From Candidatus Uhrbacteria bacterium (GTDB lineage: Bacteria; Patescibacteriota; Patescibacteriia; GWA2-47-26), in contig JACPJN010000007.1 of the NCBI GenBank assembly GCA_016187515.1, forward strand, positions 228,778 to 292,777: a stretch of DNA of 64,000 nt, read 5' to 3'. This document shows positions 28,002 to 52,067 of this stretch, piece by piece. How positions within the stretch are numbered: position 1 is the stretch's first letter; each line of letters begins with the position of its first letter. The position numbers and the translations under genes were made by a program. Below the pieces are notes generated by a model. It was not told where the DNA came from and made no database searches. It saw only the letters and a program-made list of their open reading frames with translations.

Positions 28002-28244
28002 AAGTAAATAAGTTGTAAGTAGTAAGTAGTAAGTAGTGGTAAGTTACTTTTGAATTTTCTTCCAGCCATTGATTAGTTTAGCAGTTTCTTCTGTAACTTG
28101 GTACACCTCCAATGTCAATTCATGAGCTCTCTGCCATGCAATAATTTCACGAAATGTCTTGACCAATATAACTTACAACTTACTCACTTACTCACTTACT
28201 CACTTACTCACTTACTCACTTACTCACTTACTCACTTACTCACT
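28002..28244. repeat. palindromic tandem octamer element: (GTAAGTAG)n ... (CTTACTCA)x9
   Basis: 28003-28050 GTAAGTAGTAAGTAGTAAGTAGTGGTAAGTTAC and 28161-28244 TAACTTACAACTTACTCA(CTTACTCA)n. The two blocks are reverse complements. Spans the whole rny-ymdB intergenic region and generates spurious ORF 28098..28349. Confidence 0.8.
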
Positions 28245-29990: not shown

Positions 29991-30025
29991 TTGACAAGAG
30001 TTGAAAAATATGCTAGTATAAAGGG
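29991..30025 (+). promoter_or_regulatory. putative sigma70-type promoter and strong SD for the GC-islet gene
   Basis: cTTGACAagagttgaaaaatatgcTAGTATaaa, followed at 30071-30088 by gggagAAAGGAGctggcaATG. Confidence 0.35.
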
Positions 30026-30088
30026 TCCCTTGACAATGGGTTCCCATACCCAAAAACCCCCGTTATATACGGGAGAAAGGAGCTGGCA

Positions 30089-31222
30089 ATGGAAAAGTGC
30101 ATACACGGAATGCGACCCGAGTTTTGCGCTCGCTGCCGGCCCCAAGACCCCCAAAAGAGTCAGCCGGGCAGCAGCGAACCATCTCGCGCCAAGGCAGGGA
30201 CTCTTGATCAGCAATATCGCGAACTTCTAGCTGAACGCCGGCGCGCCCAAGTTGTGGTGCGCAAGGATGCGCGCGCGGCTCTGGAAACCGGATACGTGAG
30301 GATCTGTACTCAGGGAGGAGGACGCCGCCATCACAGCTTCAACGACCTCGACGTGCGCACTCGGGTTGTGCACATCAATGGCTACCCGTTTCTGTGGGCA
30401 ATCGAGCTGATCCTGGAGCGGGCTCCCAACGTGAGTCGGATCGAGGTCATCCCGAGCATGCTCGCTAAACTCCAAGCTATGCAGAGCAGCAGGGCGTTGG
30501 CACTGTGTCGCGAGCGCGCAGTTGAACTGGTGGCGGGTCACGACCGCCCGGACACGGCCTGGGAAGGCAAGGAAAACCGCTCGCCTACCTACGACAAGCA
30601 GCGCGCTTTCCTCGTCGGCCTCGCCGGGACACAAAAGGCGCGCTGGGAAGAGTTGCTCGCCATGGAGTTCGAGGCCGCGCAGCTCACCGCGCGCTACTTC
30701 TGTCTCCGCGGAGAAGAATACCGTTCGCAGAGGATCTTGGGTGAGGACTACGGGATCGCTCAAAGCATGGACCATATGGTCTCGATGCGGATTACCGCGA
30801 TCCTGTACTACCTTGATCCGTCGTTCAAGATCAGTGCGCGATCCAAGCAGTTCGCGGGAATGATGGAACGACGCGCCGCTCGTTTGCGGCCATTTCTCAC
30901 CGATGCAAGGTTGCGGGAAAAACTTGCCACGCAGCTGGGCATCCCTGCCCTTCCCTCTGGCTTGCCACTCAGCAGGCTAGAGGTCTACGACGCCCTGCTT
31001 CAGGCCCGCCAGGACGGGCGACTGGACCGGCTCGCCAAGGACCACGAGAACGCTCACTGCGCGCTTGCGTTGCGCTTTGGCCTGGACAAGCTTGATGCCC
31101 CGGCGTATCTCACTCTGGAGGCAGTTGGTCAGCTCATGGGTGAGGGAGGAGTCACGCGTGAGCGGATCCGTCAGCTCGAAGAACGGGCGCTGGAGCTTCT
31201 CGGAATCCAGGAAGACGAATAG
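30089..31222 (+). CDS. GC-rich ORFan with N-terminal Cys cluster and C-terminal sigma-70 region 4-like HTH
   Basis: 377 aa. N-terminus MEKCIHGMRPEFCARC. C-terminus YLTLEAVGQLMGEGGVTRERIRQLEERALELLG closely matches sigma-70 region 4.2 (LTLEEVG..VTRERIRQIE.KAL.KL). No sigma region 2 recognisable. GC much higher than neighbours. Confidence 0.6.
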   Translation: MEKCIHGMRPEFCARCRPQDPQKSQPGSSEPSRAKAGTLDQQYRELLAERRRAQVVVRKDARAALETGYVRICTQGGGRRHHSFNDLDVRTRVVHINGYPFLWAIELILERAPNVSRIEVIPSMLAKLQAMQSSRALALCRERAVELVAGHDRPDTAWEGKENRSPTYDKQRAFLVGLAGTQKARWEELLAMEFEAAQLTARYFCLRGEEYRSQRILGEDYGIAQSMDHMVSMRITAILYYLDPSFKISARSKQFAGMMERRAARLRPFLTDARLREKLATQLGIPALPSGLPLSRLEVYDALLQARQDGRLDRLAKDHENAHCALALRFGLDKLDAPAYLTLEAVGQLMGEGGVTRERIRQLEERALELLGIQEDE

Positions 31223-31299
31223 CACCCTCCCAATGTCCCGCCGGTCATAACGGCGGGAAAGACGCCCTTCATCCACTGAAGGACGCTGCGAAAAACGCA

Positions 31300-31331
31300 G
31301 AGCCCCACGGCAACGTCGGGGCTCGTTTTTT
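31300..31331. terminator. bidirectional rho-independent terminator
   Basis: GAGCCCCacggcaacgtcGGGGCTC followed by TTTTTT on plus strand. Lies between convergent genes ending at 31222 (+) and 31338 (-). Confidence 0.6.
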
Positions 31332-31337
31332 AAAAAT

Positions 31338-31937
31338 TTATGGCAATTGGGCTAGGATTTTGCGCTTGAGGCGGGAGAATTGATGAGCGTTAAGGTTGAG
31401 CTCGGGTACTTCTATTGTCTTTTGCAATAATTCGCGCAGACGCTCCGTGTGCGAGGTCAAATTGTGGGCCTTAACGAGCTTCGCGTATAAGCTCCAATCA
31501 ATGCCGGTATTAAGCAATCCGATAATGTCCACGCGATCTTTCTCACCTTTTAAACTATGCCCACGATCGTGCCAGGCATGTTGCTTGAGAATAAGTAAGA
31601 CGGCTTTTCGCGGCAGAGTAAATCCTTCCACCTGCGCAGTATGTTTCTGCACCGTCTCAATCGGGAGTCCCAGATCGGAAAAATACGGGACATAAACATC
31701 CACATCAATTTCTTCAAGATGAATCTCGTATTTCTTTAGTCGATCGTTTTTAAAAAGCTCGTGTTCTTTGCGTAAGCGTTCCAACTCGCCATACGCTACA
31801 ATCACATCAATATCTTTTGATTTCAATTGTTTGGTATATAAATATACTGCCCATCCGCCAATTAAAATAAATTGATGCTGACGTTTGAGGTCTTGAAGCA
31901 TCCTCCAGCTTTTTTCAGTAATGAGCTCATGATACAT
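31338..31937 (-). CDS. minimal nucleotidyltransferase-fold protein (candidate toxin)
   Basis: 199 aa. FILIGGWAVYLYTKQLKSKDIDVIV fits the hG[GS]-x(9-13)-DhD Pol-beta-type NTase motif. Immediately downstream (4 nt) of an HTH protein gene. Confidence 0.45.
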   Translation of the reverse strand: MYHELITEKSWRMLQDLKRQHQFILIGGWAVYLYTKQLKSKDIDVIVAYGELERLRKEHELFKNDRLKKYEIHLEEIDVDVYVPYFSDLGLPIETVQKHTAQVEGFTLPRKAVLLILKQHAWHDRGHSLKGEKDRVDIIGLLNTGIDWSLYAKLVKAHNLTSHTERLRELLQKTIEVPELNLNAHQFSRLKRKILAQLP

Positions 31938-31940
31938 ATC

Positions 31941-32582
31941 TCACAGTTTCATTTTTTCTTTTAGCGCTTCGAGAAATTCTTTGGCATACCAATGCGGGGT
32001 ATTCCAGATATCCACGAAGGTTTGCGCGTCGGACGTCAGGTGCGGCTCCGGCGCGCCCAGAGCATCGGGTTTTAAGACCACCAGATTTTCATAGCCCCTG
32101 GTTTTCGGAAAACGCGCTCTGATCGCGTCCACATCAGGGGCATACACATACACCACGTCATAATCCGCCGGCGCGTCCTTGTAGCGCAGGCGATAGGCGC
32201 TGAAGGCCGCAAAGATCGCGCCGGGAACCATCGCCCCCTCGATTTTTTGTACGGATGCGTCAACGTGGGTGGCATAAAGAATGTCGCGCTTGAGGTTACG
32301 CTGCGTTGCCCAAAGATAAAGCAGTTTTTCCGGATCACGCAGGCGAAAAAATCGTCCGGTTACCTCCACCGCGCCGATCTTGCGCGGGATATCCAGGGCG
32401 TGGTGTACGGTGCTCAAAGAAAACCGAAAGCGCCGCGCCAGCTCTTTTTGCGTAAAGGTTGGCAACTTTTTTGGGCTGGCCGTGTCCAAAATATGGCGCC
32501 AAATTAGCTCTTTTTTGGTCATACCCGGTTTCGATTTCTTTACCCTATTTATAGCTTCATTTCTATTATAATCGAAACTCAA
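31941..32582 (-). CDS. winged-HTH DNA-binding protein (candidate antitoxin/regulator partner of the NTase)
   Basis: 213 aa. N-terminal TQKELARRFRFSLSTVHHAL helix-turn-helix. Gene order HTH then NTase mirrors AbiEi-AbiEii modules. Confidence 0.4.
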   Translation of the reverse strand: MSFDYNRNEAINRVKKSKPGMTKKELIWRHILDTASPKKLPTFTQKELARRFRFSLSTVHHALDIPRKIGAVEVTGRFFRLRDPEKLLYLWATQRNLKRDILYATHVDASVQKIEGAMVPGAIFAAFSAYRLRYKDAPADYDVVYVYAPDVDAIRARFPKTRGYENLVVLKPDALGAPEPHLTSDAQTFVDIWNTPHWYAKEFLEALKEKMKL

Positions 32583-32614
32583 TTTTTTGTCAACCCTGAC
32601 CCATCAGAGCCTGT

Positions 32615-35600
32615 TTACGCGCTATTTTTGCTCTTGCGCGTGATAAGAAACCAAGCCGCGCGGGTTCCGGAGACAAAGAGTTTCCGCCGGCGCAGCGCGG
32701 CCGCGGCCGCCACCGCGCCTCCTCCGGCCGCCGTGGCGGTAGTATAGGGAGAGGGTTCGGCGGTTGATGCTCCGTCTTTTTCTGTCTCCGCGCCAGTTGC
32801 GCCCAACAATTCATCTTTACTCAAAATCTCAATATCTTCGGTAAACCTGGGCATGAGTTGATACCCGTTTTTGGTCTGTCCTAAAATACCCGTAACCGCG
32901 ACTCTAAATCCCGGGACAAGCTCGGTCATCTTAATATCGGTCGTATTCTTTACCGCCACATAAACTTCCCCGGCCGCATCCTCCAAAGTAAATCCGGAGT
33001 TTTTTATATCAATAATCGTGCCTTCCATCTTAATTAACGCGGCCTCGGTTTCCTCACCAACTTCATCGCTTAAAACCTGGCGCGGAATTGGCGCTTTTCC
33101 TTTCTTAATAAATCCAACGTCTTCCTTATCTTTAACGCGAATCCGATACTCGCCGCCGGCCTGACCCAGTACGCCTTGAACGGTAACCACATCGCCAATC
33201 TCAAGCGCCGGAAACGCTTTTTTGCTGGAATAAACCTGCAAACCTGATTCCCGGCTTTGCCGAGGATCCTCGGTAGTAAAGCTACCGGGACCGAATAAAT
33301 AAAAAATCTGCGCGCCGAGCATTCCGGGCGGCGCGGAAACCACTCCTTGCACGCGGACTTTTGTACCCAGCTCAAGATCACGCACTTCGGAAAGCGGTAC
33401 TTCCTGCGCGGCGTAAGACCCCTCCTCCGCTCCGCGCGGGAGAGGAGGGGGTGAGGACGATTCAATCACATTTTTCGCGCCCGGTGTTAACTTCCCGGTC
33501 CATCCCCACTGACCGTTTTGCGTCCGCGCGTAACTGTGTCCCTCACGCGCTTCTTCATACTCCACACTATCGATCAGCCGACCGACCGGATCAAACAAGC
33601 GCACCGCGTCCGTTGTATTGTTGAGCGTAAGCCGCGTTTTTGATTTGGGGAAAAGCGCGTAGCTGTGCGGCGCGGCTTTAACCGCCTCAATCGTATGGGC
33701 CGGACTCCCGCCTTCGATGTCATCCAGTTTAAATCCGGCCAGATCCAATTCTTCAGCGCCATCCCAAAACAGTTCAAGCCATTCTCCCTCATCAGATCCC
33801 TCCGGATCAGGAATAAATTCCGAGATGAAAAGTTTATCTCGCACATCAGAAATCCCCTCACCCCCACCCTCTCCCGCAGGGGGCGAGGGAGTACGATTGG
33901 CTTCCTCCCCCTTGATGGGGGAGGATTGAGGAGGGGGTGGTAATTTTGTGTTATCTGTGTCGATTTTCTGTGATTCTTCAATCACGTTTCCCTGCCCTTT
34001 CGTCACCTTCGCCGTTACCGCAAAATCCTTCTGATCATTAGCGGTGTCTTGCCCGTCTACCCGTCGGGCAACCGAATGGGGGTCTTGAGCGGCTGGCGCG
34101 TTATCCGAAGGTATGCCATCCTCCCACACGCCATAGGCCACGCGATCCACTACTGCGTTTTTATCATTTTTTAGCCGAATGATGTCGCCCTTGTTGTTGA
34201 GATTGCCTTTGATTGTCTCCACCACCAAAAACATTCCGGGAACAATGGTGCCTTGCAATTTGGTCTTACTTTCCGCGCCTTCTTCTAAAAACCAACCTTG
34301 AAGATCAACCGCGACCTCGCCGGAGTTAAAAAGTTCAACCCACTCCTCGCCGTCTTCCGGATCAGACACGAATTCGTTGATCACTATTTCCGCGGAAGGA
34401 ATGTTCGATGGCGCGGATACAACATCTGTGCCTCCGCGAGTAACGGTTTCAGTAATAACTTTGATTGCGGTAATGGTATTGGCCGAACCCTTGGTTGGGG
34501 TAGATGAAACCGCAAAATCGACGTTATCTATTCCAGTATCCGCGCCATTGCTTTTGCGCGCCACCGCGTGTCCGGGAGTATCGGGCGCCGGGGCATTGTC
34601 GGAAATGTTTCCATCGTTCCAATCGCCATAAGCGGCTTTATCGAGAAGCAACCCCGCGGCCGACTTCAGTTCAATAACGTCGCCGCTATTGTTGAGCCGC
34701 GCGGACGAAACTTCAAAAACCAAAAAGCCGCGCGCCGAAATTGTGCCCGTAAGCGATTTTATGGAATTGCCGGTGCCGTCATAAATTCTCCACCCGGCCA
34801 AATCAATCGGGAGATTAGTATTGTTGTAAAGTTCAATCCACTCCACGCTGTCGGTCGGATTGGGAACAAACTCATTGATAACCACCTCTCCCGCGCCAAC
34901 CACCCCTTCCTCCCCTCCTGCCAAAGGAGGGGGAAGCGGATCGTTTTCCTCCCCTGCCGGAGGAGGGTCGCCTTCCTCGCTTTCTCCCCCTTCTGAAGGG
35001 GGAGATTCAGAGGGGGTCCCAAGCTCCGGCCGTACCGCACTTACGCTATTTCGCGGATCCGCGCTTGCCCGTAACACAAAATCCGCGACATTGTTATTGG
35101 TATCCGCGCCGTTACCTTCCGCGCCGCCCGGAAGACGCTCAATACTTTCGCCCGCGCCCGGATTTGCCGCGAAAACTGTCCCTTCCACAAAAGCGTTTGC
35201 CGCCGTACCCCAGCCGACCGCGTCAATGATCTCGCCGGTATTTTCCGGGCCGCGGCGAAGGGCGATCCCGTTGTCCGGAGCAATCGTGCCTACGGTGGTT
35301 TCATCCGGCGTAACCGCGATAGCCGTAAACCCGCTATTGGCCCAAAGATAATAGCCGTGGGATGGCACTAGCGCCGCTTCGGTCCAGGATTTCAGAGTAG
35401 TGTCGCTGGTGCCCGTGGCGGTTCGCTTCACCAGCCGTATCCCATTCAAATCTACGGCCGCGGCCGTGGGATTGTAAAGCTCCACAAAATCATTCGTAGT
35501 TTTTCCCGCCCCGCCGGTGATCTGCACTTGGGAAATTAGCAGTCCGGTACCATGCGCGGCCGAGGCAAGGTTCCCCAAATAAAAAAATCCCCCCACTACT

Positions 35601-35635
35601 ACTAAAAATATAGAAATCCTTCGGTAAAACACCAT
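32615..35635 (-). CDS. large cell-surface protein with four lamin-tail domains (LTD) and repeat-element-derived P/G/E-rich linkers
   Basis: ORF 32615..35788; probable start MVFYRRISIFLVVVGGFFYLGNLASA (signal/TM) at 35635, because the longer ORF would run through tRNA-Leu. Four repeats of the LTD pattern, e.g. INEFVPNPTDSVEWIELYNNTNLPIDLAGWRIYDG. Linkers PPSEGGESEEGDPPPAGEENDPLPPPLAGGEEG coincide with GC palindromic elements. Confidence 0.7.
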   Translation of the reverse strand: MVFYRRISIFLVVVGGFFYLGNLASAAHGTGLLISQVQITGGAGKTTNDFVELYNPTAAAVDLNGIRLVKRTATGTSDTTLKSWTEAALVPSHGYYLWANSGFTAIAVTPDETTVGTIAPDNGIALRRGPENTGEIIDAVGWGTAANAFVEGTVFAANPGAGESIERLPGGAEGNGADTNNNVADFVLRASADPRNSVSAVRPELGTPSESPPSEGGESEEGDPPPAGEENDPLPPPLAGGEEGVVGAGEVVINEFVPNPTDSVEWIELYNNTNLPIDLAGWRIYDGTGNSIKSLTGTISARGFLVFEVSSARLNNSGDVIELKSAAGLLLDKAAYGDWNDGNISDNAPAPDTPGHAVARKSNGADTGIDNVDFAVSSTPTKGSANTITAIKVITETVTRGGTDVVSAPSNIPSAEIVINEFVSDPEDGEEWVELFNSGEVAVDLQGWFLEEGAESKTKLQGTIVPGMFLVVETIKGNLNNKGDIIRLKNDKNAVVDRVAYGVWEDGIPSDNAPAAQDPHSVARRVDGQDTANDQKDFAVTAKVTKGQGNVIEESQKIDTDNTKLPPPPQSSPIKGEEANRTPSPPAGEGGGEGISDVRDKLFISEFIPDPEGSDEGEWLELFWDGAEELDLAGFKLDDIEGGSPAHTIEAVKAAPHSYALFPKSKTRLTLNNTTDAVRLFDPVGRLIDSVEYEEAREGHSYARTQNGQWGWTGKLTPGAKNVIESSSPPPLPRGAEEGSYAAQEVPLSEVRDLELGTKVRVQGVVSAPPGMLGAQIFYLFGPGSFTTEDPRQSRESGLQVYSSKKAFPALEIGDVVTVQGVLGQAGGEYRIRVKDKEDVGFIKKGKAPIPRQVLSDEVGEETEAALIKMEGTIIDIKNSGFTLEDAAGEVYVAVKNTTDIKMTELVPGFRVAVTGILGQTKNGYQLMPRFTEDIEILSKDELLGATGAETEKDGASTAEPSPYTTATAAGGGAVAAAAALRRRKLFVSGTRAAWFLITRKSKNSA
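33420..33460. repeat. family P-like palindrome inside LTD surface protein gene
   Basis: CCTCCTCCGCTCCGCGCGGGAGAGGAGGGGGTGAGGACGATTC. Encodes SSPPPLPRGAEEG. Confidence 0.55.
33853..33945. repeat. family P palindromic element inside LTD surface protein gene
   Basis: ...CTCCCCCTTGATGGGGGAGGATTGAGGAGGGGGTGG; the GATTGAGG tail is shared with the ugd copy. Confidence 0.7.
34902..35017. repeat. family P palindromic element (composite) inside LTD surface protein gene
   Basis: ...CCCCTTCTGAAGGGGGAGATTCAGAGGGGGTCCC; the AGATTCAGAGGGGGTCC tail is identical to the ahcY copy. Confidence 0.75.
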
Positions 35636-35728
35636 GGTATTGAAAAACTTTCGGTATTCTGCTATATTATAACATACGCGCCGCGGTGGTGAAATGGCAA
35701 ATTTACCCCGTAAGCTCTTGCCCAGATG

Positions 35729-35750
35729 GCGGAACTGGAATACACAGCCC
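35729..35750 (+). other. degenerate partial copy of tRNA-Leu 5' end
   Basis: GCCCAGATGGCGGAACTGGA versus tRNA 5' GCCGAGATGGCGGAATTGGC, 17/20 identical, lying about 30 nt upstream of the intact tRNA. Confidence 0.5.
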
Positions 35751-35760
35751 TCCAAAATTT

Positions 35761-35844
35761 GCCGAGATGGCGGAATTGGCAGACGCACTGGGTTTAGGAC
35801 CCAGCGATCGCAAGATCATGGGAGTTCAAATCTCCCTCTCGGCA
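35761..35844 (+). tRNA. tRNA-Leu (anticodon TAG)
   Basis: GCCGAGATGGCGGAATTGGCAGACGCACTGGGTTTAGGACCCAGCGATCGCAAGATCATGGGAGTTCAAATCTCCCTCTCGGCA. 7-bp acceptor stem, anticodon loop TTTAGGA, long variable arm, T-arm GGAGTTCAAATCTCC. No encoded CCA. Confidence 0.85.
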
Positions 35845-35910
35845 AATTTAGGCGGGCCAATATAACTTAAACAAACTTAATCTTGACAATCCCGGCTCCG
35901 GATGGTAGGT

Positions 35911-36120
35911 TTAAGGGGACTGTTGCGCAGTGCGCTTTCGTAGCGAAAGGTAAGAATTTCGAGCGAGCCGAAGCAAAAATTATGAAGCATATACGGAGTA
36001 TCTGTTGAGTAATTTTTGCAAAGGCGCAGCCGAAATTCTTACCTTGCAGTAGAAATTTGCAAAGGCGCAGCCGAAATTCTTACCTTGCAGTAGAAATGGC
36101 ACTGCGCAACAGTCCCCTAA
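35911..36120. mobile_element. MITE-like structured element: 19-bp perfect terminal inverted repeats (GGGGACTGTTGCGCAGTGC) enclosing two tandem 42-bp hairpin units
   Basis: TIRs at 35911-35929 and 36099-36120. Internal direct repeat TTGCAAAGGCGCAGCCGAAATTCTTACCTTGCAGTAGAAAT x2 (about 36011-36097); each unit is itself a hairpin. A third solo copy of TTTAAGGGACTGTTGCGCAGTGC lies at 40880-40903. Confidence 0.55.
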
Positions 36121-36145
36121 AGAACTAGGCAATCCCGCCTGGTTT

Positions 36146-36655
36146 ATGGAGGAAGTTATGCCGAAGCAGCGCCAGTCCGGTGCGCGAACCTTCAATCCTG
36201 CCGACGTCTTGAAAATTGCCAGGGAGGCCCTGCGTGATGTCTGCGGAGCCGCCGATACCGACGGCCGGGCCGGCGGATACTTTGGCCTGTTTCCCAAAGA
36301 CCGCTTCCGCCGAAACGGTTTTCCCGCGATTCTGGAGCCCATCGGGAGAATCAAGCCCGGAAAACGCGCCCTGGCCAAAAGGCGCGCGCAGGAAAAGCCC
36401 CGCCGCTTGAGCAGACACCCGGATCATGTGAGCAGCCACCAGAGCCGCGATGAAAAACGCGACCGTTGGGGCGGCGCGATCGCCGCCCAAGAATACTACT
36501 TGTCCTTTTCCGGCCTGCCGGAGCTGTGCGACGAAACGCTGTCCCTCATTGTCGCCCGCAAGCTTGGGCTGTTGACCGATAAGCAAGCCAGACGAATCGC
36601 CGGCATCAGCGGCAACCGGCTCTTCAGAGAATGGGCCGCTACCCATCGCGTCTGA
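36146..36655 (+). CDS. GC-rich hypothetical protein
   Basis: 169 aa; the start may be MPKQ at 36158, preceded by GGAGGAAG. High GC. Basic and Arg-rich. Followed by hairpin CTCCCCGCAGTACTGCGGGGAG (36661-36682) and a T-run. Confidence 0.45.
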   Translation: MEEVMPKQRQSGARTFNPADVLKIAREALRDVCGAADTDGRAGGYFGLFPKDRFRRNGFPAILEPIGRIKPGKRALAKRRAQEKPRRLSRHPDHVSSHQSRDEKRDRWGGAIAAQEYYLSFSGLPELCDETLSLIVARKLGLLTDKQARRIAGISGNRLFREWAATHRV

Positions 36656-36737
36656 ACCCACTCCCCGCAGTACTGCGGGGAGGTCGAAAAGGGTTCTCTT
36701 TTTTTACCGTACCACGGTATGATAGGATTCCACCCGT

Positions 36738-37238
36738 ATGACTCGCTTCACTCTTAAGAATGAACAACAAACTCTTGCGCTGGCCCGCCGCCTTGCCCGT
36801 ACGCTCCGCGGCGGGGACGTCTTGTTATTGCAAGGCGAGCTTGGCGCGGGCAAAACCACTTTTGTCCGCGGCTTGGCCCGCGCGCTTGGCGTGCGCAGCC
36901 GCATCAAAAGCCCGACTTTTACGCTAATACATGTGCATGAATTGGCTAAGGGCAAAGAGCATAGGGCTAAGGGCACTTTGCACAAAACTCTAAGCTCTAA
37001 GCTCTACGCTCTACGCTACCTCGTGCATTGCGATGCTTATCGGATAAAGCGCGCGCGCGAATTACGCGATGCGGGCCTCATGGACTGGCTTGGCCGACCC
37101 GACACGCTCGTGGTCGTAGAGTGGGGAGAAAAAATAAAACCGCTTCTTAAGGGGCGGCGATATATCCTGATCAAATTTGAGCATGGAGAACAAGGGAACC
37201 AGAGAATCATCAAAATGATGGCCTCTCTGCAGAGTTAG
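36738..37238 (+). CDS. tsaE: tRNA threonylcarbamoyladenosine biosynthesis protein TsaE (YjeE P-loop ATPase) with in-frame tandem-repeat insertion
   Basis: 166 aa. [22 protein letters not shown] Walker A and SPTFTL block. About 25 extra residues ([25 protein letters not shown]) encoded by tandem DNA repeats at 36941-37020 (gctaagggca / ctctaagctctacgct). Confidence 0.8.
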
Positions 37239-37294
37239 TTGACAGGTGCCTCTCGTTATGCTACAGTGGTATCGATCGCGGCACAGATGCCGTA

Positions 37295-39031
37295 TTGATC
37301 ACAACCCTGGTTTTCGAAGAAAGGAATGGTGCTAAAATGGCATTCATTGCCCCGAAGTTCCGACGTGAATCGTGGTACGGGCGACTGTACCTGCGCGCGT
37401 ACGGCGAGGATCGCGGGTGGCTCGTCCGCCTCAAGCTGGCGGGCTCGATCGGGTTCGACTACGCGCCGTGCCCGGAGTTCCCCGCCGATGTCCCCGAGGC
37501 CGAGCGCATCGGTGCGGCCGTTGACTGGCGCAGGCGGAGCGACGAAGCACATCAGCGCTCGCTCGCGTTCCTCATGATGCCGCCAGCGGTCCAGCCGTTC
37601 GTCGAGACGGGCCCGAAGGTTTCGATCTGTCCGACGTTCTGGAAGATCGTGTTCGCGATGCTCGTGTACTGTCCGATCGTCGCGCTGCGCGCGATGAGAC
37701 GGGCGATCCGCGATGCGGCGCGGGCGGCGCTCGCGGCGATCGCCTCCGCGTTCCGGTGGACCGGCCGTCGGTTCGGTCGGCCGCTCGCGTGGATGACCGC
37801 CGGCGCGTTCGTACTTGCCAGCTACGGCATGGGCGTCTACATGATCGCAGCGGTGTCGTACGGCGTGACCGGCTATCTCATGGGTCGTGCCGGCATCAGT
37901 CCGGAGGAAGCGCTGCTGCAAGTGGTGGAGGCGCAGACGCGTGCCGAACGCGAGCAGCTTCGCCAGGACTACCTCAAGGAGTGCGCCGCGAGCATCCGAG
38001 CCGAAGCGGAGAGGACCGTTGAGTCCTACCCGGAGTGCGATACGTTCGTTCTCATTGGCGGGATGTCGCACGAAGAGCAGGCGAAGCGGTGCGTCGGCCG
38101 CGACGAGCGGTATCTCTCCGAGATCAAGGCAGTCGAGGGCGGCGACCACGACTGCGTGGTGCAGGAGATGTATGGTTGGAGAGGTCTTGTCTTCGCGCGT
38201 CTGTTCCCCGGTGAGGCCGAACGAAAGGAGCTCGCAACATGGCTCGCGGCAAAGCTCCGCGAGCGGTTCGCGAAGGAGGTGCAGGCCGGTCTCGACTCGC
38301 GCGAGCGGCGGATCGCCGAGGCGCGCAAGGAGGACGCGAAGGTCGTCGGCGCCGCGGTCGCGAAGCTCGTCCCGATGCAGCATGATCCTCGCAAGCTCTA
38401 CGAGCAGTTCACGGCCAACTGTCGGTACGAGGAGTACGACAAGCGGTGGGTCGCGAGGTATGGGCACGGTGTCGTCTCGAACGCGACCTGTGCGACGCTC
38501 GCCGGACTGTTCGGCCCGCAGATCGAGGACGCGCAGTTCACGATCCGGTGGCAGGAGAGGAGAACAGCGCTCCGACAGTACGGGCCGGGCGTCGGGAAGG
38601 GGATCGGGTTCGTGGTCGGTGTCGTGTTCCTTCTCGCACTGCTCGTCGTGCTCCTGGACAGGTACATCCGCGCAATCGGTCGCGCGCTCGCGTGGTTTTT
38701 AGACAGGATTGTCTGGCCAGTCGGCAAATGGACCGTGATCATCGCGACCGCGCCGATCTGGATGCCGGTGCGGTACCTCGTCTGGCCGGCGCTCTGTCTG
38801 GTCGGGCGGAGTTTCCGGTCCGTCGGGCTCGCGTTCGGGCTCGCGTTCTGGAACGTCTGGCTCGTACGCACGGTTCGCTCCGCGTTCGTCTCCGTGTTCA
38901 CCGGCATCGCCTCCGGCATCCGCCGGTTCGCTGCCGCGACGCGGCAGGTCCTCGCGGACACCTGGCACCTCATCCGCGCCTTCGCGTCCGCGAAGTGGGA
39001 ACGCCTCTGCCCGTTCATCGAGTGGTCGTAA
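37295..39031 (+). CDS. GC-rich hypothetical polytopic membrane protein
   Basis: 578 aa; start possibly MAFIAPKF at 37337. Multiple hydrophobic helices at both ends and a central soluble Cys-containing domain. Local GC very high, so several long antisense ORFs appear (37256..38467- and others). Confidence 0.5.
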   Translation: MITTLVFEERNGAKMAFIAPKFRRESWYGRLYLRAYGEDRGWLVRLKLAGSIGFDYAPCPEFPADVPEAERIGAAVDWRRRSDEAHQRSLAFLMMPPAVQPFVETGPKVSICPTFWKIVFAMLVYCPIVALRAMRRAIRDAARAALAAIASAFRWTGRRFGRPLAWMTAGAFVLASYGMGVYMIAAVSYGVTGYLMGRAGISPEEALLQVVEAQTRAEREQLRQDYLKECAASIRAEAERTVESYPECDTFVLIGGMSHEEQAKRCVGRDERYLSEIKAVEGGDHDCVVQEMYGWRGLVFARLFPGEAERKELATWLAAKLRERFAKEVQAGLDSRERRIAEARKEDAKVVGAAVAKLVPMQHDPRKLYEQFTANCRYEEYDKRWVARYGHGVVSNATCATLAGLFGPQIEDAQFTIRWQERRTALRQYGPGVGKGIGFVVGVVFLLALLVVLLDRYIRAIGRALAWFLDRIVWPVGKWTVIIATAPIWMPVRYLVWPALCLVGRSFRSVGLAFGLAFWNVWLVRTVRSAFVSVFTGIASGIRRFAAATRQVLADTWHLIRAFASAKWERLCPFIEWS

Positions 39032-39062
39032 GAGAGCAGATCTTGATCATTCTTGCCCCGTA

Positions 39063-39125
39063 CAGGTTTCCGGCATCACGCCGGGGGCTCGCACGGGGCG
39101 TTTTTCTTTTAAAATCCCCGCTGCT
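39063..39125 (+). terminator. putative rho-independent terminator after GC-islet membrane protein gene
   Basis: GCCCCGTACAGG...CTCGCACGGGGCGTTTTTCTTTT; GC stem CCCCGT(a)C / G(c)ACGGGG with a T-run. Confidence 0.4.
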
Positions 39126-39147
39126 CTTTTAAGTCGTATAAGACCTA

Positions 39148-40866
39148 TCATTCTGCCACTCGGAAGACCTCTTCCACCGTCGTAATCCCGTCTAAGGCCT
39201 TGAGCAGGCCGTCTTGAACCATGGTGATCATGCCGGCTTTGACCGCAATTTCCTGCAGGGTATATTCGGAGATTTTTCCGGCCAGCACCACCTCTTCAAT
39301 TTCTTTATTCATCATCATTACCTCAAAAATACCCACCTGTCCTTTGTAGCCCAGATCAAAACAGCGCGCGCAGCCCCGGCCGCGGTAGAATTTTAAGGCG
39401 GCTAACGGCTGACGGTCCCGGCTTTGCCGAGGACTCTCGGTTTGACCGGAGCTTACCGCGGACTGCTCTTTGGGAAGCGCCGCGAGTATTTCTTTCACGC
39501 GCTTAAGCGTCTCCTCCTCCAATTTCACCTCTTCTTTGCACTCCTCGTGAATCCGGCGAACCAACCGCTGGGCCATTACCGCGTTAAGCGCGGGAGCCAG
39601 CAGAAACGGTTTAGCCCCCAACGCTAAAAACCGCGGAATCGCGCCGGAGGCGGAATTAGTATGGACGGTGGAAAGCACCAAATGTCCGGTAAGCGCGGCT
39701 TGGATCGCGATATCCACGGTTTCCAGGTCGCGGATCTCGCCGACCATAATCACATCCGGGTCTTGGCGCAAAATCGAACGCAGCCCTTCGGCAAAGGAAT
39801 AATGCTTGGCCGTATCAATTTGGCTTTGCGCGATGCCGGGAAGTTTGTACTCGATGGGATCCTCCAGGGTAATGATCTTGGTCTCCGGATTATTGAGTTT
39901 ATGCAAAGCCGCGTAAAGCGTGGTGGTTTTCCCCGAGCCGGTCGGCCCGGTCGTGATAATCATGCCGTTGGGACGCTTAATTTCCGCCATCAGTCGCTCA
40001 AACGGCTTGCCCCGCAACCCCAATTCTTCAAAGTTAAGCCCCTTGGAAATTGGTTTCAAAATACGAATCACCACGGACTCTCCCTCGGAAGTGGGAATAG
40101 TGGAGACGCGCACCTCCACATTTCCCTCTTTTACAAAAATAGTAAACCGCCCGTCTTGGGGACGATCGGTAACATTAATCTTTAGCCCGGAGATTAACTT
40201 GATCCGCGAAACAACCTTGGGCCACTCGGATTTATCAAGCTTGGCGACTTGATGAAGGACCCCATCAATGCGAAAGCGCACCACAATAGCGGCGCTTTCG
40301 GCTTCAATATGAATATCGGAAGAATTGGCCCGCAAGGCCGAGGCGACCAGCAGGGTGACCAGATCGGTAACCGCTGCGCCTTTGAGCCGCGCCTGGAGCT
40401 CGTCAAACGAATGAAATTCTTCTTTAAAATTCGCCAAATCCTCGGCCTTAATTTCCACGCCTTTGACGGACGGCTTAAGGCGAGGCAGTTTCGCGTATAA
40501 CTTAAGCGCGTGATCTAAAGAATCATCCGAGATCATGTAAATCAACCCGCGGGCCTTAATCCGCTCCTGAATTTGATATAGCAGTTCGTGGAGCGCGGGA
40601 TTTTCCGGACGCGGACTCCCTATCCTAAACTCGTCTCCAATATAAAAAAAACACACTACGGATAGCTGCCGGGCCTGCTCCTCCGGGATAATCCGCAGCG
40701 CCTCCGTACTAATCGGAAACTTTACCAACTGAATATAGGGAATGGCGGCGCGCGAGGCGGCCTGTTCAATGTCATGTTCCTTGCCGCGCAAGTTCAGCTC
40801 CTTCATCTTTTCTTCAAACTCCTGCCGGGCCTCTTTGGAACTGATGCGCGGAAACTGATTGTCCAT
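39148..40866 (-). CDS. type II/IV secretion system ATPase (GspE/PilB family)
   Basis: 572 aa. Walker A GPTGSGKTTTLYAAL; GEIRD and tetracysteine motif (GCARCFDLGYKG) typical of PilB/GspE. Confidence 0.85.
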   Translation of the reverse strand: MDNQFPRISSKEARQEFEEKMKELNLRGKEHDIEQAASRAAIPYIQLVKFPISTEALRIIPEEQARQLSVVCFFYIGDEFRIGSPRPENPALHELLYQIQERIKARGLIYMISDDSLDHALKLYAKLPRLKPSVKGVEIKAEDLANFKEEFHSFDELQARLKGAAVTDLVTLLVASALRANSSDIHIEAESAAIVVRFRIDGVLHQVAKLDKSEWPKVVSRIKLISGLKINVTDRPQDGRFTIFVKEGNVEVRVSTIPTSEGESVVIRILKPISKGLNFEELGLRGKPFERLMAEIKRPNGMIITTGPTGSGKTTTLYAALHKLNNPETKIITLEDPIEYKLPGIAQSQIDTAKHYSFAEGLRSILRQDPDVIMVGEIRDLETVDIAIQAALTGHLVLSTVHTNSASGAIPRFLALGAKPFLLAPALNAVMAQRLVRRIHEECKEEVKLEEETLKRVKEILAALPKEQSAVSSGQTESPRQSRDRQPLAALKFYRGRGCARCFDLGYKGQVGIFEVMMMNKEIEEVVLAGKISEYTLQEIAVKAGMITMVQDGLLKALDGITTVEEVFRVAE

Positions 40867-40879
40867 ATTCCCGCGTGGC

Positions 40880-40903
40880 TTTAAGGGACTGTTGCGCAGT
40901 GCC
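40880..40903. repeat. solo copy of the MITE-like terminal repeat TTTAAGGGACTGTTGCGCAGTGC
   Basis: Identical 23-mer to 35907-35929 (the left TIR of the tRNA-Leu-adjacent element). Lies between pilB start and the downstream membrane-protein gene. Confidence 0.65.
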
Positions 40904-40905
40904 GT

Positions 40906-41877
40906 TTAGATTACTTTGCGATGCAGGAGATGACCAAACCGGGAAGTAAGACGGATAATCTTGGCGGTGGCGCCTTCCTCACGCAGGCGCATAAACAGCA
41001 GCACCCAGGAAGCGTATTGAAAAGTCACAAACGCGGAACCGATCAGCAAGAGCGCCGCCAAATACGCGGCCGCCCCGACTGCCACGATTACCCAAAGCAG
41101 CGCCGGAACATTCAAAAACACCGCGATTGAACCCGCCAGCAGCAGCGGTATTCCCAAAGCGAACATGGCGAGCAGAACGCCGACCCCGACCAAAAGCGTG
41201 ATAAAGTAAAGAATCAGCGCCAGCTCGATGGAGACCAGCCAGTGCTGCGCGAAAATTGAAAACGCTTCCCGCAGTGATTGTAAGAAGGTGTGTCCATCAA
41301 GAATAACCAGCACCGCGGCGTAGATGCCCAGAAAAGATAAGATCAGTGAAAGTAAGGTGACTAAAACAAAGGCGAGCAAGAACAGCGTAAAGGTGAGCGG
41401 AGACGGCCCTTGCGCGACTAAAGGATTGATCAAGAACCAATACAGCAGAATGTCCAGCCGCGTCAGCAGGCCAATCCCCAGCAGCGGAAAAAAAGCGCGC
41501 GCTCCGCGCTTTAAAAGCGCCGGAATACTTTCTTTTCGCCCAGGACTAGCGGTCTTCGCCAGCGCCCAAATCAGTCCGCCGCGAGCGGCCGTCACCAAAA
41601 CGAGCAGAGCCGCCATTACGGCAAGCGCAATAAACGAGAGGCCCAAAAGGACGGCGAATTGCCAAAAATTCAGACCGGCAAACGGCAAGAGCAAAGAGCT
41701 TGCTCCGGCAAGAAAGCCGGGTCCTGGCAGGCGTTCCAGGGCTTGGTTAAAGGTCTGGTAGGCGCCCAGATCACCCCAGAATACGGCCAAAAGCCCCAGC
41801 GCCCAAAACCGCTTATAATTCCAGGTCGTTTTCCAGGCCTCCCGCAAAATGTGCCGATAAAGCGTATCCTCCTGCAT
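40906..41877 (-). CDS. hypothetical multi-pass membrane protein
   Basis: ORF 40906..41922. Probable start MQEDTLYRHILREAWK at 41877, since the N-terminal extension is encoded by an intergenic hairpin repeat. About 6 TM helices. Confidence 0.45.
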   Translation of the reverse strand: MQEDTLYRHILREAWKTTWNYKRFWALGLLAVFWGDLGAYQTFNQALERLPGPGFLAGASSLLLPFAGLNFWQFAVLLGLSFIALAVMAALLVLVTAARGGLIWALAKTASPGRKESIPALLKRGARAFFPLLGIGLLTRLDILLYWFLINPLVAQGPSPLTFTLFLLAFVLVTLLSLILSFLGIYAAVLVILDGHTFLQSLREAFSIFAQHWLVSIELALILYFITLLVGVGVLLAMFALGIPLLLAGSIAVFLNVPALLWVIVAVGAAAYLAALLLIGSAFVTFQYASWVLLFMRLREEGATAKIIRLTSRFGHLLHRKVI

Positions 41878-41886
41878 ATTTATGGA

Positions 41887-41970
41887 GTGAATCAAGTAAA
41901 TCAAGCGAGGCATGTAAATCAAGGGCCTGATTTACCTGATTTACCTGATTTACTTATCTTACTTAATTTA
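41887..41970. repeat. family S hairpin element
   Basis: GTGAATCAAGTAAATCAAGCGAGGCATGTAAATCAAGGGCCTGATTTACCTGATTTACCTGATTTACTTATCTTACTTAATTTAC. Confidence 0.75.
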
Positions 41971-41978
41971 CACCACCA

Positions 41979-43895: not shown

Positions 43896-43922
43896 GTGTT
43901 TTGTAGGTTAAGAACTAGGTAA

Positions 43923-43978: not shown

Positions 43979-43980
43979 TT

Positions 43981-52060: not shown

Positions 52061-52067
52061 TGAAACC

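What the first reader, a model, noticed from the sequence alone, without database searches (positions are those of the whole stretch)
35690..36140. tRNA-Leu hotspot: degenerate tRNA fragment, intact tRNA-Leu(TAG), and a MITE-like element with 19-bp perfect TIRs and tandem 42-bp hairpin units
Upstream of tRNA-Leu (35761-35844) lies a 20-nt degenerate copy of its 5' end (35729-35750), which may be a footprint of site-specific integration at the tRNA. Downstream, a 210-bp element (35911-36120) is bounded by a perfect 19-bp inverted repeat GGGGACTGTTGCGCAGTGC. It contains two tandem 42-bp units, each a hairpin, plus a further internal inverted repeat (GGTAAGAATTTCG / CGAAATTCTTACC). A third, solo copy of the terminal 23-mer occurs 5 kb away at 40880-40903. 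The two GC-rich islets (36146-36655 and 37256-39140) follow directly after the element. The element could be a non-autonomous transposon (MITE), an integron-like attC-type site, or a structured sRNA gene.
Basis: seen in the sequence. Interest (0 to 1): 0.66.

Follow-up and report, generated by a model that had tools for sequence, protein, structure and literature searches.

The report
Dispersed palindromic mini-element in an mRNA leader
The 211-bp hairpin-forming sequence next to tRNA-Leu is one copy of a small, non-coding, repeated (MITE/REPIN-like) element scattered through a Patescibacteria genome, and it has landed between the promoter and the start of a conserved tsaE operon; this is an ordinary kind of bacterial junk or regulatory DNA, though not described before in this group.

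Summary
tRNA-Leu(TAG) lies at 35761-35844. A 24/29 copy of its 5' end lies at 35718-35746. A 211-bp palindromic element spans 35910-36121 and has 20-bp perfect terminal inverted repeats. Its tandem unit is 41 nt, not 42, in two identical copies. A solo terminus lies at 40879-40907.

New evidence supports the mobile-element reading.
- A fourth terminus, identical over 30/30 nt but with a different flank, ends a public contig about 8.5 kb left of the window. It exactly explains why nine independent assemblies break at 36092.
- The five orthologous species found have short leaders of about 20-45 nt without the element. The closest reads like an empty site.
- The element sits between a conserved promoter (TTGACA-17-TAGGTT) and the ribosome-binding site of a conserved ORF165-tsaE operon. 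It should therefore be transcribed as a 5' hairpin of about -105 kcal/mol.

No transposase, integrase or RAYT gene lies in about 76 kb examined. The terminus matches public collections only by chance, and Rfam gives nothing.

The tRNA-integration footprint, attC, sRNA and "35845-39140 is an insertion" ideas are not supported. ORF165 is GC-rich in every relative, and ORF165-tsaE-pilB synteny is conserved.

Verdict: a new family of a known kind, comparable to Correia or REPIN elements. Interest is modest.

The parts
35640..35668 (+). sigma-70-like promoter (TTGAAA-17-TATATT, with extended TG) upstream of the tRNA leader
   Evidence: 10 of 12 consensus matches
35718..35746 (+). degenerate copy (24/29) of the 5' acceptor and D-arm part of tRNA-Leu, 41 nt upstream of the real one; most simply a decayed local tandem duplication within the tRNA leader
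   Evidence: (D2)
35761..35844 (+). tRNA-Leu(TAG), intact; leader and trailer pair to extend the acceptor stem (35747-35770 / 35834-35857)
   Evidence: I4
35883..35911 (+). promoter of the ORF165-tsaE operon: -35 TTGACA (35883-35888), 17-nt spacer, -10 TAGGTT (35906-35911); inferred transcription start about 35917-35919, inside the left terminus of the element
   Evidence: Sequence read directly. Four orthologous loci have TTGACA-17-TA(G/T)nnT at the same place and L060 has a weaker TTGCGC-17-TAAGGT. The consensus scanner did not flag it because the -10 matches only 3 of 6.
35910..36121 (.). palindromic non-coding element (211-212 bp; about 170 bp before the internal duplication); outer boundaries TTTA(A)GGGG...CCCCTAAA
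   Evidence: the right boundary at 36121/36122 is defined by the identity break with the L066 copy
35914..35933 (+). left terminal inverted repeat (20 bp perfect); itself a small hairpin GG.ACTG-TTGCG-CAGT.CC
36099..36118 (-). right terminal inverted repeat (20 bp perfect)
36015..36096 (+). two identical 41-nt tandem units on the right arm (a recent duplication); each can form a weak 7-bp hairpin
   Evidence: (D1)
36158..36655 (+). ORF165 (ribosome-binding site GGAGGA at 36149-36154): conserved uncharacterised partner of tsaE in Patescibacteria; first gene downstream of the element
36738..37238 (+). tsaE (t6A biosynthesis ATPase)
   Evidence: PF02367, 1e-33
37337..39031 (+). ORF564, 66.7% GC, predicted membrane protein with its own promoter and terminator; absent between tsaE and pilB in relative L054; not part of the element
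40879..40907 (+). solo terminus of the same family (TTTAAGGGACTGTTGCGCAGTGCCGTTT), in the 39-nt gap between the stop of ORF335 and the ATG of the pilB-like ATPase
   Evidence: (I9)

Best explanation
The 211-bp sequence at 35910-36121 is one copy of a dispersed, non-autonomous, palindromic repeat family (MITE-like in the broad sense) in the chromosome of a Patescibacteria (CPR) bacterium.

**Shown:**
- The family's terminus TTTA(A)GGGGACTGTTGCGCAGTGCC occurs four times at three loci within about 76 kb, each with a different flank. These are the two arms here, a solo remnant upstream of pilB, and a copy that overlaps the 3' end of a HAD/nucleotidyl-transferase gene about 8.5 kb left of the window.
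- This copy lies between the conserved promoter of the ORF165-tsaE operon and its ribosome-binding site. Orthologous loci in the five related species found have only a leader of about 20-45 nt there.
- One arm has recently gained a perfect 41-bp tandem duplication.

**Inferred:**
- The element arrived by transposition. One route is a DDE transposase, which would give the TAA (or TA) direct repeat visible on both sides of GGGG...CCCC. The other is a REP/REPIN-type HUH transposase that recognises the small hairpin in each terminus plus the conserved TTTA. My split between the two routes is about 60:40.
- Because no other promoter lies between the element and the gene, the element is transcribed as the first ~200 nt of the mRNA. 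It may also be transcribed by read-through from tRNA-Leu.
- That RNA folds into a hairpin of about -105 kcal/mol whose base is a 20-bp perfect duplex.
- By analogy with Correia elements, this hairpin would be an RNase III substrate or a 5'-end protecting structure, and would therefore change mRNA stability rather than encode anything.

The upstream tRNA 5' fragment is an unrelated, decayed 41-nt local duplication in the tRNA leader.
For: **Repeat family and boundary**
- Searches show three termini in the window, with 0 expected by chance.
- Searches show that contig L066 ends in ...GGAAGTG|TTTAGGGGACTGTTGCGCAGTGCCATTTCT. This is 30/30 identical to the reverse complement of 36092-36121, and the flank differs.
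- A k=31 de Bruijn graph of the window alone predicts breaks at 28215/16 and 36067/68 but not at 36091/92. A break at 28216 is observed.
- Adding L066 to the graph predicts the 36091/92 break. That is where all nine Logan contigs carrying tsaE start.

**Insertion**
- In L054, L055, L056, L058 and L059 the promoter is followed by a leader of about 20-30 nt.
- L060 (73% amino-acid identity) reads TAAGGT-TAAGGGG-CTAGAG...CTATGGAGGAACCGATG. The window reads TAGGTT-TAAGGGG[ACTG...206 nt...AGAA]CTAGGC...TTTATGGAGGAAGTTATG.

**Non-coding and palindromic**
- Searches show a whole-length palindrome with no long open frame. Folding gives z = -10.7 and -11.3 on the two strands.
- One search finds no + strand promoter or terminator between the element and ORF165.
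- In the fold of the whole leader the ribosome-binding site stays largely unpaired.

**Not a conserved RNA**
- Rfam gives nothing.
- The 18-mer matches GTDB representatives, JGI metagenomes and IMG/VR only by chance; no hit shares flanking sequence.

**Documented analogues (PMC2649163)**
- Correia elements occur as solo 26-bp repeats.
- They have length variants caused by tandem duplication.
- One copy lies between the mtrCDE promoter and its genes, is co-transcribed, and is cut by RNase III.
Against: - No transposase, integrase or RAYT gene is present in the window or in the ~11.7 kb of extensions.
- No autonomous partner with these ends was found in any public collection.
- Only three loci are known. 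The whole-genome copy number is unknown, and it is unknown whether the L066 copy is a full element.
- The target-site duplication is ambiguous. TAA fits, but all four termini carry TTTA, which may belong to the element itself.
- The 'empty site' in L060 already contains TTAAGGGG, identical to the first 8 nt of the left end. That could mean part of the left terminus is ancestral leader sequence and the palindrome grew in place.
- Two termini, the right arm and the solo copy, lie in the same orientation 12-36 nt upstream of start codons. A regulatory motif would also produce this pattern.
- A search for spurious ORFs translated across other copies found nothing.
- Transcription, RNase III cleavage and mobility are all untested.
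Confidence: 0.62

Rival explanations
1. It is a host-selected cis-regulatory element and not mobile DNA. The ~25-nt motif would be an operator or RNA-binding site placed upstream of ORF165-tsaE and of pilB. The long palindrome would be a structured leader, for example an RNase III processing site separating tRNA-Leu from the mRNA, or a stability or attenuation hairpin.
For: - The right arm and the solo copy lie in the same orientation 36 and 12 nt upstream of the two start codons.
- The left arm overlaps the -10/+1 region of the promoter.
- The hairpin is extremely stable.
- No transposase lies nearby.
Against: - The fourth copy overlaps the 3' coding end of a gene and points away from any start codon.
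- The relatives found lack the motif at both loci, so it is not conserved with the genes it would regulate.
- ORF165 is not a helix-turn-helix protein; its model is a confident alpha/beta fold with only weak resemblance to DUF336.
- 30/30 identity between copies 44 kb apart, together with a perfect 41-bp duplication, points to recent copying rather than ancient constraint.
Confidence: 0.15
2. The palindrome arose in place. An inverted duplication of ancestral leader sequence, by template switching at a hairpin, produced it. The other termini are products of gene conversion or illegitimate recombination, not transposition.
For: - L060's leader already contains TTAAGGGG at the position of the left terminus.
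- The whole 170-bp core is an imperfect palindrome, not merely its ends.
- The window holds several other families of intergenic palindromes built from short repeats. Palindrome-generating processes therefore seem active in this genome.
Against: - It does not explain identical 30-nt termini at an unrelated locus 44 kb away with a sharp identity boundary.
- It does not explain the solo copy either.
- MAFFT prefers to align L060's TAAGGGGCTAG with the right flank TAAAGAACTAG. That is the classical empty-site geometry with a TAA duplication.
Confidence: 0.08
3. It is the footprint of site-specific integration at tRNA-Leu. The upstream tRNA fragment and the downstream GC-rich genes would mark a genomic island, and the element would be an att-type or attC-type recombination site.
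For: - A genuine partial tRNA copy exists at 35718-35746.
- ORF564 is 66.7% GC and is absent from relative L054.
Against: - The copy is of the 5' end, lies upstream and is only 41 nt away. Tyrosine integrases duplicate the 3' part of the tRNA at the far end of the island (own knowledge, Williams 2002).
- No 3' tRNA copy exists in the window.
- No integrase or IntI lies in 64 kb.
- ORF165-tsaE-pilB synteny is conserved, and ORF165 is GC-rich in all relatives.
- The attC-like heptamers are in reversed order: GTTGCGC...GCGCAAC instead of RYYYAAC...GTTRRRY.
Confidence: 0.03
4. It is a small-RNA locus: either a type III antitoxin-like repeat array (two 41-nt repeats upstream of a ~165-aa toxin), a TIGR-like guide array, or a free-standing sRNA.
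For: - Two tandem 41-nt units, each with hairpin potential, lie directly upstream of a 165-aa basic protein.
- TIGR arrays occur in CPR bacteria (PMC12045711).
Against: - ORF165 is a conserved partner of tsaE in relatives that have no repeats.
- ORF165 has no ToxN/AbiQ, PADLOC or Pfam hit.
- TIGR units are about 36 nt with variable 9-nt spacers, occur in 5-15 copies and sit next to a Nop-domain protein. Here the two units are identical and no such protein is present.
- There is no Rfam hit and no terminator.
Confidence: 0.02

Closest known systems
Correia repeat-enclosed elements (CREE/NEMIS) of Neisseria
   Same: - Size of about 100-170 bp, non-coding.
- Perfect or near-perfect terminal inverted repeats of 20-26 bp.
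- Solo terminal repeats also occur.
- Length variants arise by internal tandem duplication.
- Copies inserted between a promoter and its gene are co-transcribed, and their hairpin is bound or cut by RNase III.
- Target is a TA-type site.

All taken from PMC2649163.
   Different: - There is no sequence similarity and the phylum is different.
- Here the whole interior is palindromic.
- No IHF site or outward promoter is recognisable.
- Copy number is unknown: 3 loci in 76 kb, against more than 100 per Neisseria genome.
- RNase III cleavage is not tested.
REP / REPIN elements mobilised by RAYT (HUH Y1) transposases
   Same: - Each terminus is itself a short imperfect palindrome preceded by a conserved tetranucleotide (TTTA here).
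- Two termini in inverted orientation form a long hairpin (a doublet).
- A singlet is also present, which in REPIN biology is a decayed remnant.
- Location is mostly extragenic.

Taken from PMC3116915.
   Different: - The spacer between the termini is 165 bp, against about 40-90 bp.
- No RAYT gene was seen in 76 kb.
- One copy overlaps the 3' end of a coding sequence.
- A possible TAA direct repeat would not be expected for HUH transposition.
- The abundance typical of REPINs (tens to hundreds of copies) is not shown.
Other bacterial MITEs and whole-length palindromic repeats (ERIC, RUP, BOX, Rickettsia palindromic elements) - from own knowledge
   Same: - They are small imperfect palindromes, usually intergenic.
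- They are co-transcribed with neighbouring genes and affect mRNA stability.
- They are sometimes tolerated at the ends of genes.
   Different: There is no sequence relationship, and the parent insertion sequence is unknown.
Integron attC sites
   Same: They are imperfect palindromes of 60-140 bp that fold as single strands.
   Different: - The core sites are in the wrong order.
- There is no IntI and no cassette array.
- The element lies inside an mRNA leader.

Membership tests
MITE (non-autonomous DDE-transposon derivative) | Small (under ~600 bp) and non-coding | tested here: met
   The element is 211 bp. All six frames are interrupted or lack a start and ribosome-binding site.
MITE (non-autonomous DDE-transposon derivative) | Terminal inverted repeats | tested here: met
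   The repeats are 20 bp perfect, extending to 29 nt at 90%. None is expected by chance.
MITE (non-autonomous DDE-transposon derivative) | Target-site duplication flanking the terminal repeats | tested here: inconclusive
   TAA flanks GGGG...CCCC on both sides. However, TTTA is present at all four termini, so it may be part of the element. Both ends are visible for only one copy.
MITE (non-autonomous DDE-transposon derivative) | Several copies in one genome with unrelated flanks | tested here: met
   Three loci with four termini lie in about 76 kb, and all flanks differ. Genome-wide number is unknown.
MITE (non-autonomous DDE-transposon derivative) | Presence/absence polymorphism at orthologous sites | tested here: met
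   The element is absent from the ORF165 leader in all five relatives found. These are different species (46-73% amino-acid identity), not strains.
MITE (non-autonomous DDE-transposon derivative) | A related autonomous insertion sequence with the same ends | tested here: not met
   No transposase lies in the window or its extensions. The terminus is absent from GTDB representatives, JGI metagenomes, IMG/VR and plasmids. The rest of this genome could not be searched.
REPIN / REP | Unit is a short imperfect palindrome with a conserved adjacent tetranucleotide | tested here: met
   Each terminus folds as GG.ACTG-loop-CAGT.CC, at -9.1 to -9.6 kcal/mol on the strand beginning TTTA and -4.7 to -5.3 on its complement. 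TTTA is conserved at all four termini.
REPIN / REP | Inverted doublet forming a hairpin; singlets as remnants | tested here: met
   The doublet is 35910-36121 and the singlet is 40879-40907. The spacer is unusually long at 165 bp.
REPIN / REP | A cognate RAYT (Y1 HUH transposase) gene in the genome | not testable with these tools
   None is present in the 76 kb examined.
Integron attC | 5'-R''(RYYYAAC)...R'(GTTRRRY)-3' core sites and an integron integrase or cassette context | tested here: not met
   Both strands read 5'-GTTGCGC...GCGCAAC-3', which is the reverse order with one mismatch each. No integrase is present (Pfam).
tRNA-integrated genomic island | Tyrosine or serine integrase next to the tRNA, and a direct repeat of the tRNA 3' part at the distal boundary | tested here: not met
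   There is no integrase. The only tRNA-like copy is a 5' fragment lying upstream. Synteny of the supposed cargo is conserved in relatives.
Type III toxin-antitoxin (ToxIN/CptIN/TenpIN) | Tandem RNA repeats, then a terminator, then a ToxN/AbiQ-family endoribonuclease | tested here: not met
   ORF165 has no Pfam, NCBIfam or PADLOC hit. It is a conserved neighbour of tsaE in genomes without the repeats.
TIGR-Tas array | Alternating 8-12-nt repeats with variable 9-nt spacers in units of about 36 nt, next to a Nop-domain Tas protein | tested here: not met
   The two units are identical, 41 nt long, and no Nop protein is present. The definition comes from PMC12045711.

The most novel reading that the evidence does not exclude
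The family could be a REPIN-like population in a reduced (~1 Mb) Patescibacteria genome. It would be maintained by a single-copy HUH transposase and co-opted as RNase III-sensitive leaders or intercistronic hairpins that set expression of the tsaE (t6A) operon and the pilB pilus/competence ATPase. It would be one of several co-existing families of intergenic palindromes seen in this window. Together these would mean that CPR bacteria, despite streamlined genomes, carry a rich and functionally used population of hairpin repeats.
Probability: 0.1. Interest if true: 0.55.

Novelty: new member of a known kind. Interest (0 to 1): 0.33.

Why it matters
Small palindromic repeats such as MITEs and REPINs are well known in Proteobacteria and Firmicutes. 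I found no paper describing them in Patescibacteria. Patescibacteria genomes are tiny and usually described as poor in mobile DNA.

This copy is placed where it must become the 5' end of the mRNA for a conserved tRNA-modification operon. That makes it a natural test case for how such insertions rewire expression in an uncultivated lineage.

The family also has a practical effect. It visibly fragments metagenome assemblies of this organism, because contigs from about ten samples stop exactly at its termini. Beyond that, it is an ordinary class of element.

Tried and rejected
**Exact 18-mer scans.** I scanned GTDB species representatives, JGI metagenomes and IMG/VR. All 44 hits are chance matches with unrelated flanks. 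No relative or parent insertion sequence was found.

**BLAST.** Neither the region against phages nor the element against plasmids gave a hit.

**Six-frame peptide search.** I concatenated peptides translated from the element and searched 5.8 billion proteins, hoping to catch spurious ORFs called over other copies. None scored at E<=10.

**Left-hand contig.** I tried to recover the Logan contig on the left of the element through the LTD protein. The exact product is not on record, and the homolog search returned only relatives at 72% identity or less. Contigs from the next gene break inside the LTD gene at about 33930.

**Rfam.** Searches at the gathering threshold and at E<=10 returned only the tRNA and a meaningless plant miRNA hit at 14.8 bits.

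**ORF165 as regulator or toxin.** I tested whether ORF165 could be a helix-turn-helix autoregulator or a toxin. The AlphaFold model is confident (pLDDT 90.5), but its best PDB neighbours are weak DUF336/EfgA-like folds with E>0.1. Both ideas were rejected.

**Other ideas rejected.**
- A replication origin, because GC skew shows no switch.
- An outward-facing promoter in the right arm or at the solo copy, because no sigma-70-like match was found (and by inspection).
- An invertible 4.8-kb segment between the right arm and the solo copy, because gene order and orientation are the same in relative L054.
- A link between the two 41-nt periodicities (tRNA fragment offset and tandem unit), because the units share no sequence.
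Full report
**Context**

The window is a stretch of bacterial chromosome, not a phage or plasmid.
- It carries housekeeping genes: two ftsH, RNase Y, ymdB, ribosomal protein S1, infB, tsaE, a pilB-like type II/IV secretion ATPase, and sugar-nucleotide biosynthesis genes.
- Megablast of 30000-44000 against the phage collection finds nothing, and blastn of the element against the plasmid collection finds nothing.
- The best-named homologs of the large lamin-tail-domain/OB-fold protein next to the tRNA are from 'Patescibacteria group' MAGs.
- Sequence matching the window, with identical gene products, occurs in Logan assemblies of runs SRR12113383-431.
- Relatives of the neighbouring gene come from other metagenomes, including a sample whose contig name begins 'Hain_H51_02um'.

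**Checking the observation**

*tRNA and its upstream fragment.* ARAGORN and Rfam both find one tRNA, tRNA-Leu(TAG), at 35761-35844.

Forty-one nt upstream, 35718-35746 matches the first 27 nt of the tRNA plus 2 leader nt at 24/29. The next-best match to that 29-mer on either strand of the window is 20/29. The fragment is therefore real and longer than the 20 nt reported.

*The element.*
- It has 20-bp perfect terminal inverted repeats: 35914-35933 against 36099-36118.
- These extend to 29 nt at 90%. The 19-mer is never found in shuffles.
- The tandem unit is 41 nt, not 42, in two perfect copies.
- After one unit is deleted, the remaining 170 bp is 79% self-complementary along its entire length. 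The element is a whole-length imperfect palindrome, not just terminal repeats around unrelated DNA.
- As RNA it folds at -104.7 kcal/mol on the + strand (z = -10.7) and -94.2 kcal/mol on the - strand (z = -11.3).

*The solo copy.* It is confirmed at 40879-40907, with 1 mismatch in the 19-mer and 93% identity over 29 nt to the right arm. It fills the 39-nt gap between the stop codon of a 335-aa membrane-protein gene and the ATG of pilB.

**What surrounds the element**

*Promoters upstream.* Divergent promoter-like sites at 35640-35668 (+) and 35693-35666 (-) serve the tRNA and the LTD gene. The LTD gene starts at 35635, not at the 35788 given in the mechanical ORF list.

*The downstream gene.* Logan gene calls and the ribosome-binding site place the first downstream gene at 36158-36655 (165 aa). 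It has a small set of homologs (12 proteins).

In every contig that reaches the next gene except L057, where a DUF559-family gene follows, the homolog sits directly upstream of tsaE. In one species (contigs L054 and L055) the order is M23 peptidase, ORF159, tsaE, then pilB on the opposite strand. ORF165-tsaE-pilB is therefore conserved synteny, not cargo.

*GC content.* In all six relatives the ORF165 homolog is 9-19 GC points richer than the following gene. The 'GC-rich islet' at 36146-36655 is a property of the protein family, which is rich in Arg, Gly and Ala and has the invariant motifs EK..RL, SS.QSR, WGGA and SFSGL..CDE.

*ORF165 structure.* Its AlphaFold model is confident (pLDDT 90.5). 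It has only weak DUF336/EfgA-like neighbours and no DNA-binding fold.

*ORF564.* This gene (37337-39031, 66.7% GC) has its own TTGACA-17-TACAGT promoter and a stem-plus-T-run terminator. It is absent between tsaE and pilB in L054. It is a separate lineage-specific gene.

**The element lies in an mRNA leader**

Upstream of the ORF165 homologs, four relatives show TTGACA-17-TA(G/T)nnT followed by a leader of about 20-30 nt. The fifth and closest, L060, has a weaker TTGCGC-17-TAAGGT and a leader of about 40 nt.

The window has the same promoter: TTGACA at 35883-35888, a 17-nt spacer, and TAGGTT at 35906-35911. In the window, 246 nt separate the -10 box from the ATG.

| Locus | Sequence |
|---|---|
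| L060 (73% aa identity) | TAAGGT-TAAGGGG-CTAGAGAAAACTCGCCTAGTCTATGGAGGAACCGATG |
| Window | TAGGTT-TAAGGGG[ACTG...element...CCCCTAAAGAA]CTAGGCAATCCCGCCTGGTTTATGGAGGAAGTTATG |

The sequences on both sides of the element are thus homologous to a continuous leader in the relative.

The consensus scan finds no + strand promoter or terminator between the element and the gene. Transcription from the conserved promoter, or read-through from the tRNA, must therefore cross the element. With a start about 7 nt after the -10 box, the mRNA would begin inside the left terminus.

The hairpin would then be 5'-terminal, with a 17-20 bp perfect duplex at its base. The ribosome-binding site stays largely unpaired in the fold of the whole leader. 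These transcription statements are inferences; no expression data were available.

**The element belongs to a dispersed family**

Nine independent Logan contigs that carry tsaE all start at window position 36092.

| Graph (k = 31) | Predicted breaks | Observed? |
|---|---|---|
| Window alone | 28215/16 | Yes, contig end at 28216 |
| Window alone | 36067/68 | No |
| Window alone | none at 36091/92 | Contigs start here |
| Window plus L066 | 36091/92 | Yes |

The unexplained break implied that the 30-mer 36092-36121 exists somewhere else with a different neighbouring base.

Extending the genome leftwards through a flanking gene gave contig L066, which is seen in six samples. It ends in ...CCGGAAGATCTGGAAGTG|TTTAGGGGACTGTTGCGCAGTGCCATTTCT. 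Its last 30 nt are identical to the reverse complement of 36092-36121, and identity stops exactly at the outer T.

This fourth terminus lies at about window coordinate -8490. A HAD/nucleotidyl-transferase gene reads into it (...GTPEDLEVF|RGLLRSAIS). Comparison with the solved homolog 4evw suggests only the last 10-20 residues of that gene are affected.

The four termini, written 5'-3' from the flank into the element:

| Terminus | Flank | Element end |
|---|---|---|
| Left arm | ggtagg | TTTAAGGGGACTG |
| Right arm | agttc | TTTAGGGGACTG |
| Solo | gtggc | TTTAAGGGACTG |
| L066 | gaagtg | TTTAGGGGACTG |

The flanks are unrelated. The element end is TTTA(A)GGG(G)ACTGTTGCGCAGTGCC.

The family therefore occupies at least three loci in about 76 kb. 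The recent 30/30 identity between copies 44 kb apart and the perfect 41-bp duplication both indicate recent activity.

**Mechanism of mobility: unresolved**

Two geometries fit.
- *DDE-type MITE.* The terminal repeats are GGGGACTGTTGCGCAGTGC, flanked by a TAA direct repeat on each side. MAFFT's preferred alignment of the L060 empty site agrees with this.
- *REP/REPIN-type.* Each terminus is a small imperfect hairpin (GG.ACTG-TTGCG-CAGT.CC; -9.1 to -9.6 kcal/mol on the strand beginning TTTA, -4.7 to -5.3 on its complement) next to a conserved tetranucleotide TTTA. Two such units in inverted orientation form a long hairpin, and a singlet is a decayed remnant. This is the organisation described for REPINs in PMC3116915.

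No transposase of any kind is encoded in the window or its extensions. The terminus is absent, apart from chance hits without flank similarity, from GTDB representatives, JGI metagenomes, IMG/VR and plasmids.

One caveat remains. The L060 leader already contains TTAAGGGG, identical to the first 8 nt of the left end. This leaves room for partial in-situ origin, or for a target preference for terminus-like sequence.

**Likely consequence**

The closest documented analogue is the Correia element (PMC2649163).
- It has 26-bp inverted repeats.
- Solo repeats occur.
- Length variants arise from tandem duplications.
- One copy lies between the mtrCDE promoter and its genes, is part of the mRNA, and is cleaved by RNase III.

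By analogy, I propose that the element here modulates stability or processing of the ORF165-tsaE transcript. It might also separate that transcript from tRNA-Leu read-through. This step is inference only.

**Rejected readings**

- *tRNA-integration footprint.* The fragment is a 5' piece lying upstream. There is no 3' repeat, no integrase, and synteny is conserved.
- *attC.* The heptamers are in reversed order and there is no IntI.
- *Type III antitoxin or TIGR array.* ORF165 is a conserved core gene without toxin or Nop signatures, and the units are identical.
- *Free-standing sRNA.* There is no Rfam match and no terminator.
- *Replication origin.* GC skew shows no switch.
- *Invertible segment.* Gene orientation is the same in L054.

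**Verdict**

The element is a new family of a known kind of bacterial repeat, found in a phylum where I found no paper describing such elements. Interest is modest. It would rise if the family proves to be an actively maintained REPIN-like population, or a functional RNase III-dependent leader.

Noticed in passing
window 14338-14453, 26676-26806, 50153-50287: Another dispersed family of ~120-bp intergenic palindromes. The arms are built from 9-nt periodic repeats (TAATTGACC / GGTCAATTA). Two copies are 82% identical over 123 nt. Predicted hairpins range from -27 to -45 kcal/mol.
   Followed up: partly
window 21855-21932, 41887-41971, 59942-60045; also 20762-20879 and 47591-47672: Two further families of intergenic palindromes made of 9-nt repeats: GTAAATCAA / TTGATTTAC and CAAATCC / TTGTAATTTGG. 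They fill gaps between genes on the same strand. Together with the studied element, this streamlined genome carries at least four families of hairpin repeats in 64 kb.
   Followed up: partly
window 28170-28257: A microsatellite of about nine ACTTACTC units lies between the RNase Y and ymdB genes. Logan contigs break exactly where a k=31 graph predicts (28216).
   Followed up: yes
window 54310-54351 and 60671-60712: A 42-nt perfect palindrome (ATTCTGTCCCAAAATCTCACGGCCGTGAGATTTTGGGACAAT) is present twice, 6.3 kb apart. It looks like a terminator or another repeat family.
   Followed up: no
window 36158-36655 and loci L054-L060: ORF165 belongs to a small, strongly conserved, uncharacterised protein family (invariant SFSGL..CDE, WGGA and SS.QSR motifs). 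It is upstream of tsaE in all relatives whose contig reaches the next gene except L057. The AlphaFold model is confident (pLDDT 90.5) but has no close structural neighbour. It may be a lineage-specific partner in t6A biosynthesis.
   Followed up: partly
loci L054 1225-1275, L058 110-156, L059 205-247: In more distant relatives the ORF159 leader has a conserved hairpin AGGAAC...GTTCCT directly before the ribosome-binding site AGGAAGGAGG. The 3' arm could pair alternatively with the ribosome-binding site, which would make a possible translational switch.
   Followed up: no
window 37337-39031: ORF564 is a 66.7% GC predicted membrane protein with no family match. It has its own promoter and terminator and lies between tsaE and pilB. 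It is absent at that position in relative L054, so it is probably a horizontally acquired or lineage-specific gene.
   Followed up: partly
window 56055-59651: The translation initiation factor IF-2 gene is interrupted by an intein carrying a LAGLIDADG homing-endonuclease domain.
   Followed up: no
window 35747-35770 / 35834-35857: The tRNA-Leu leader and trailer are complementary (24 nt, 88%), which extends the acceptor stem in the precursor.
   Followed up: no
window ~33930 (inside the LTD gene) and 15513-15557 / 34982-35026: All Logan contigs break at about 33930 inside the lamin-tail-domain gene, although the window alone predicts no repeat there. A 45-nt GGGGGAG-type hairpin repeat is shared between an intergenic site and the LTD coding region.
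   Followed up: no
window 15963-16736, 52050-52679, 54960-55574; 46026-46586: Three AbiEii-like nucleotidyltransferase toxin genes or fragments and a PIN/AF2212-like toxin-antitoxin pair are scattered through the window.
   Followed up: no
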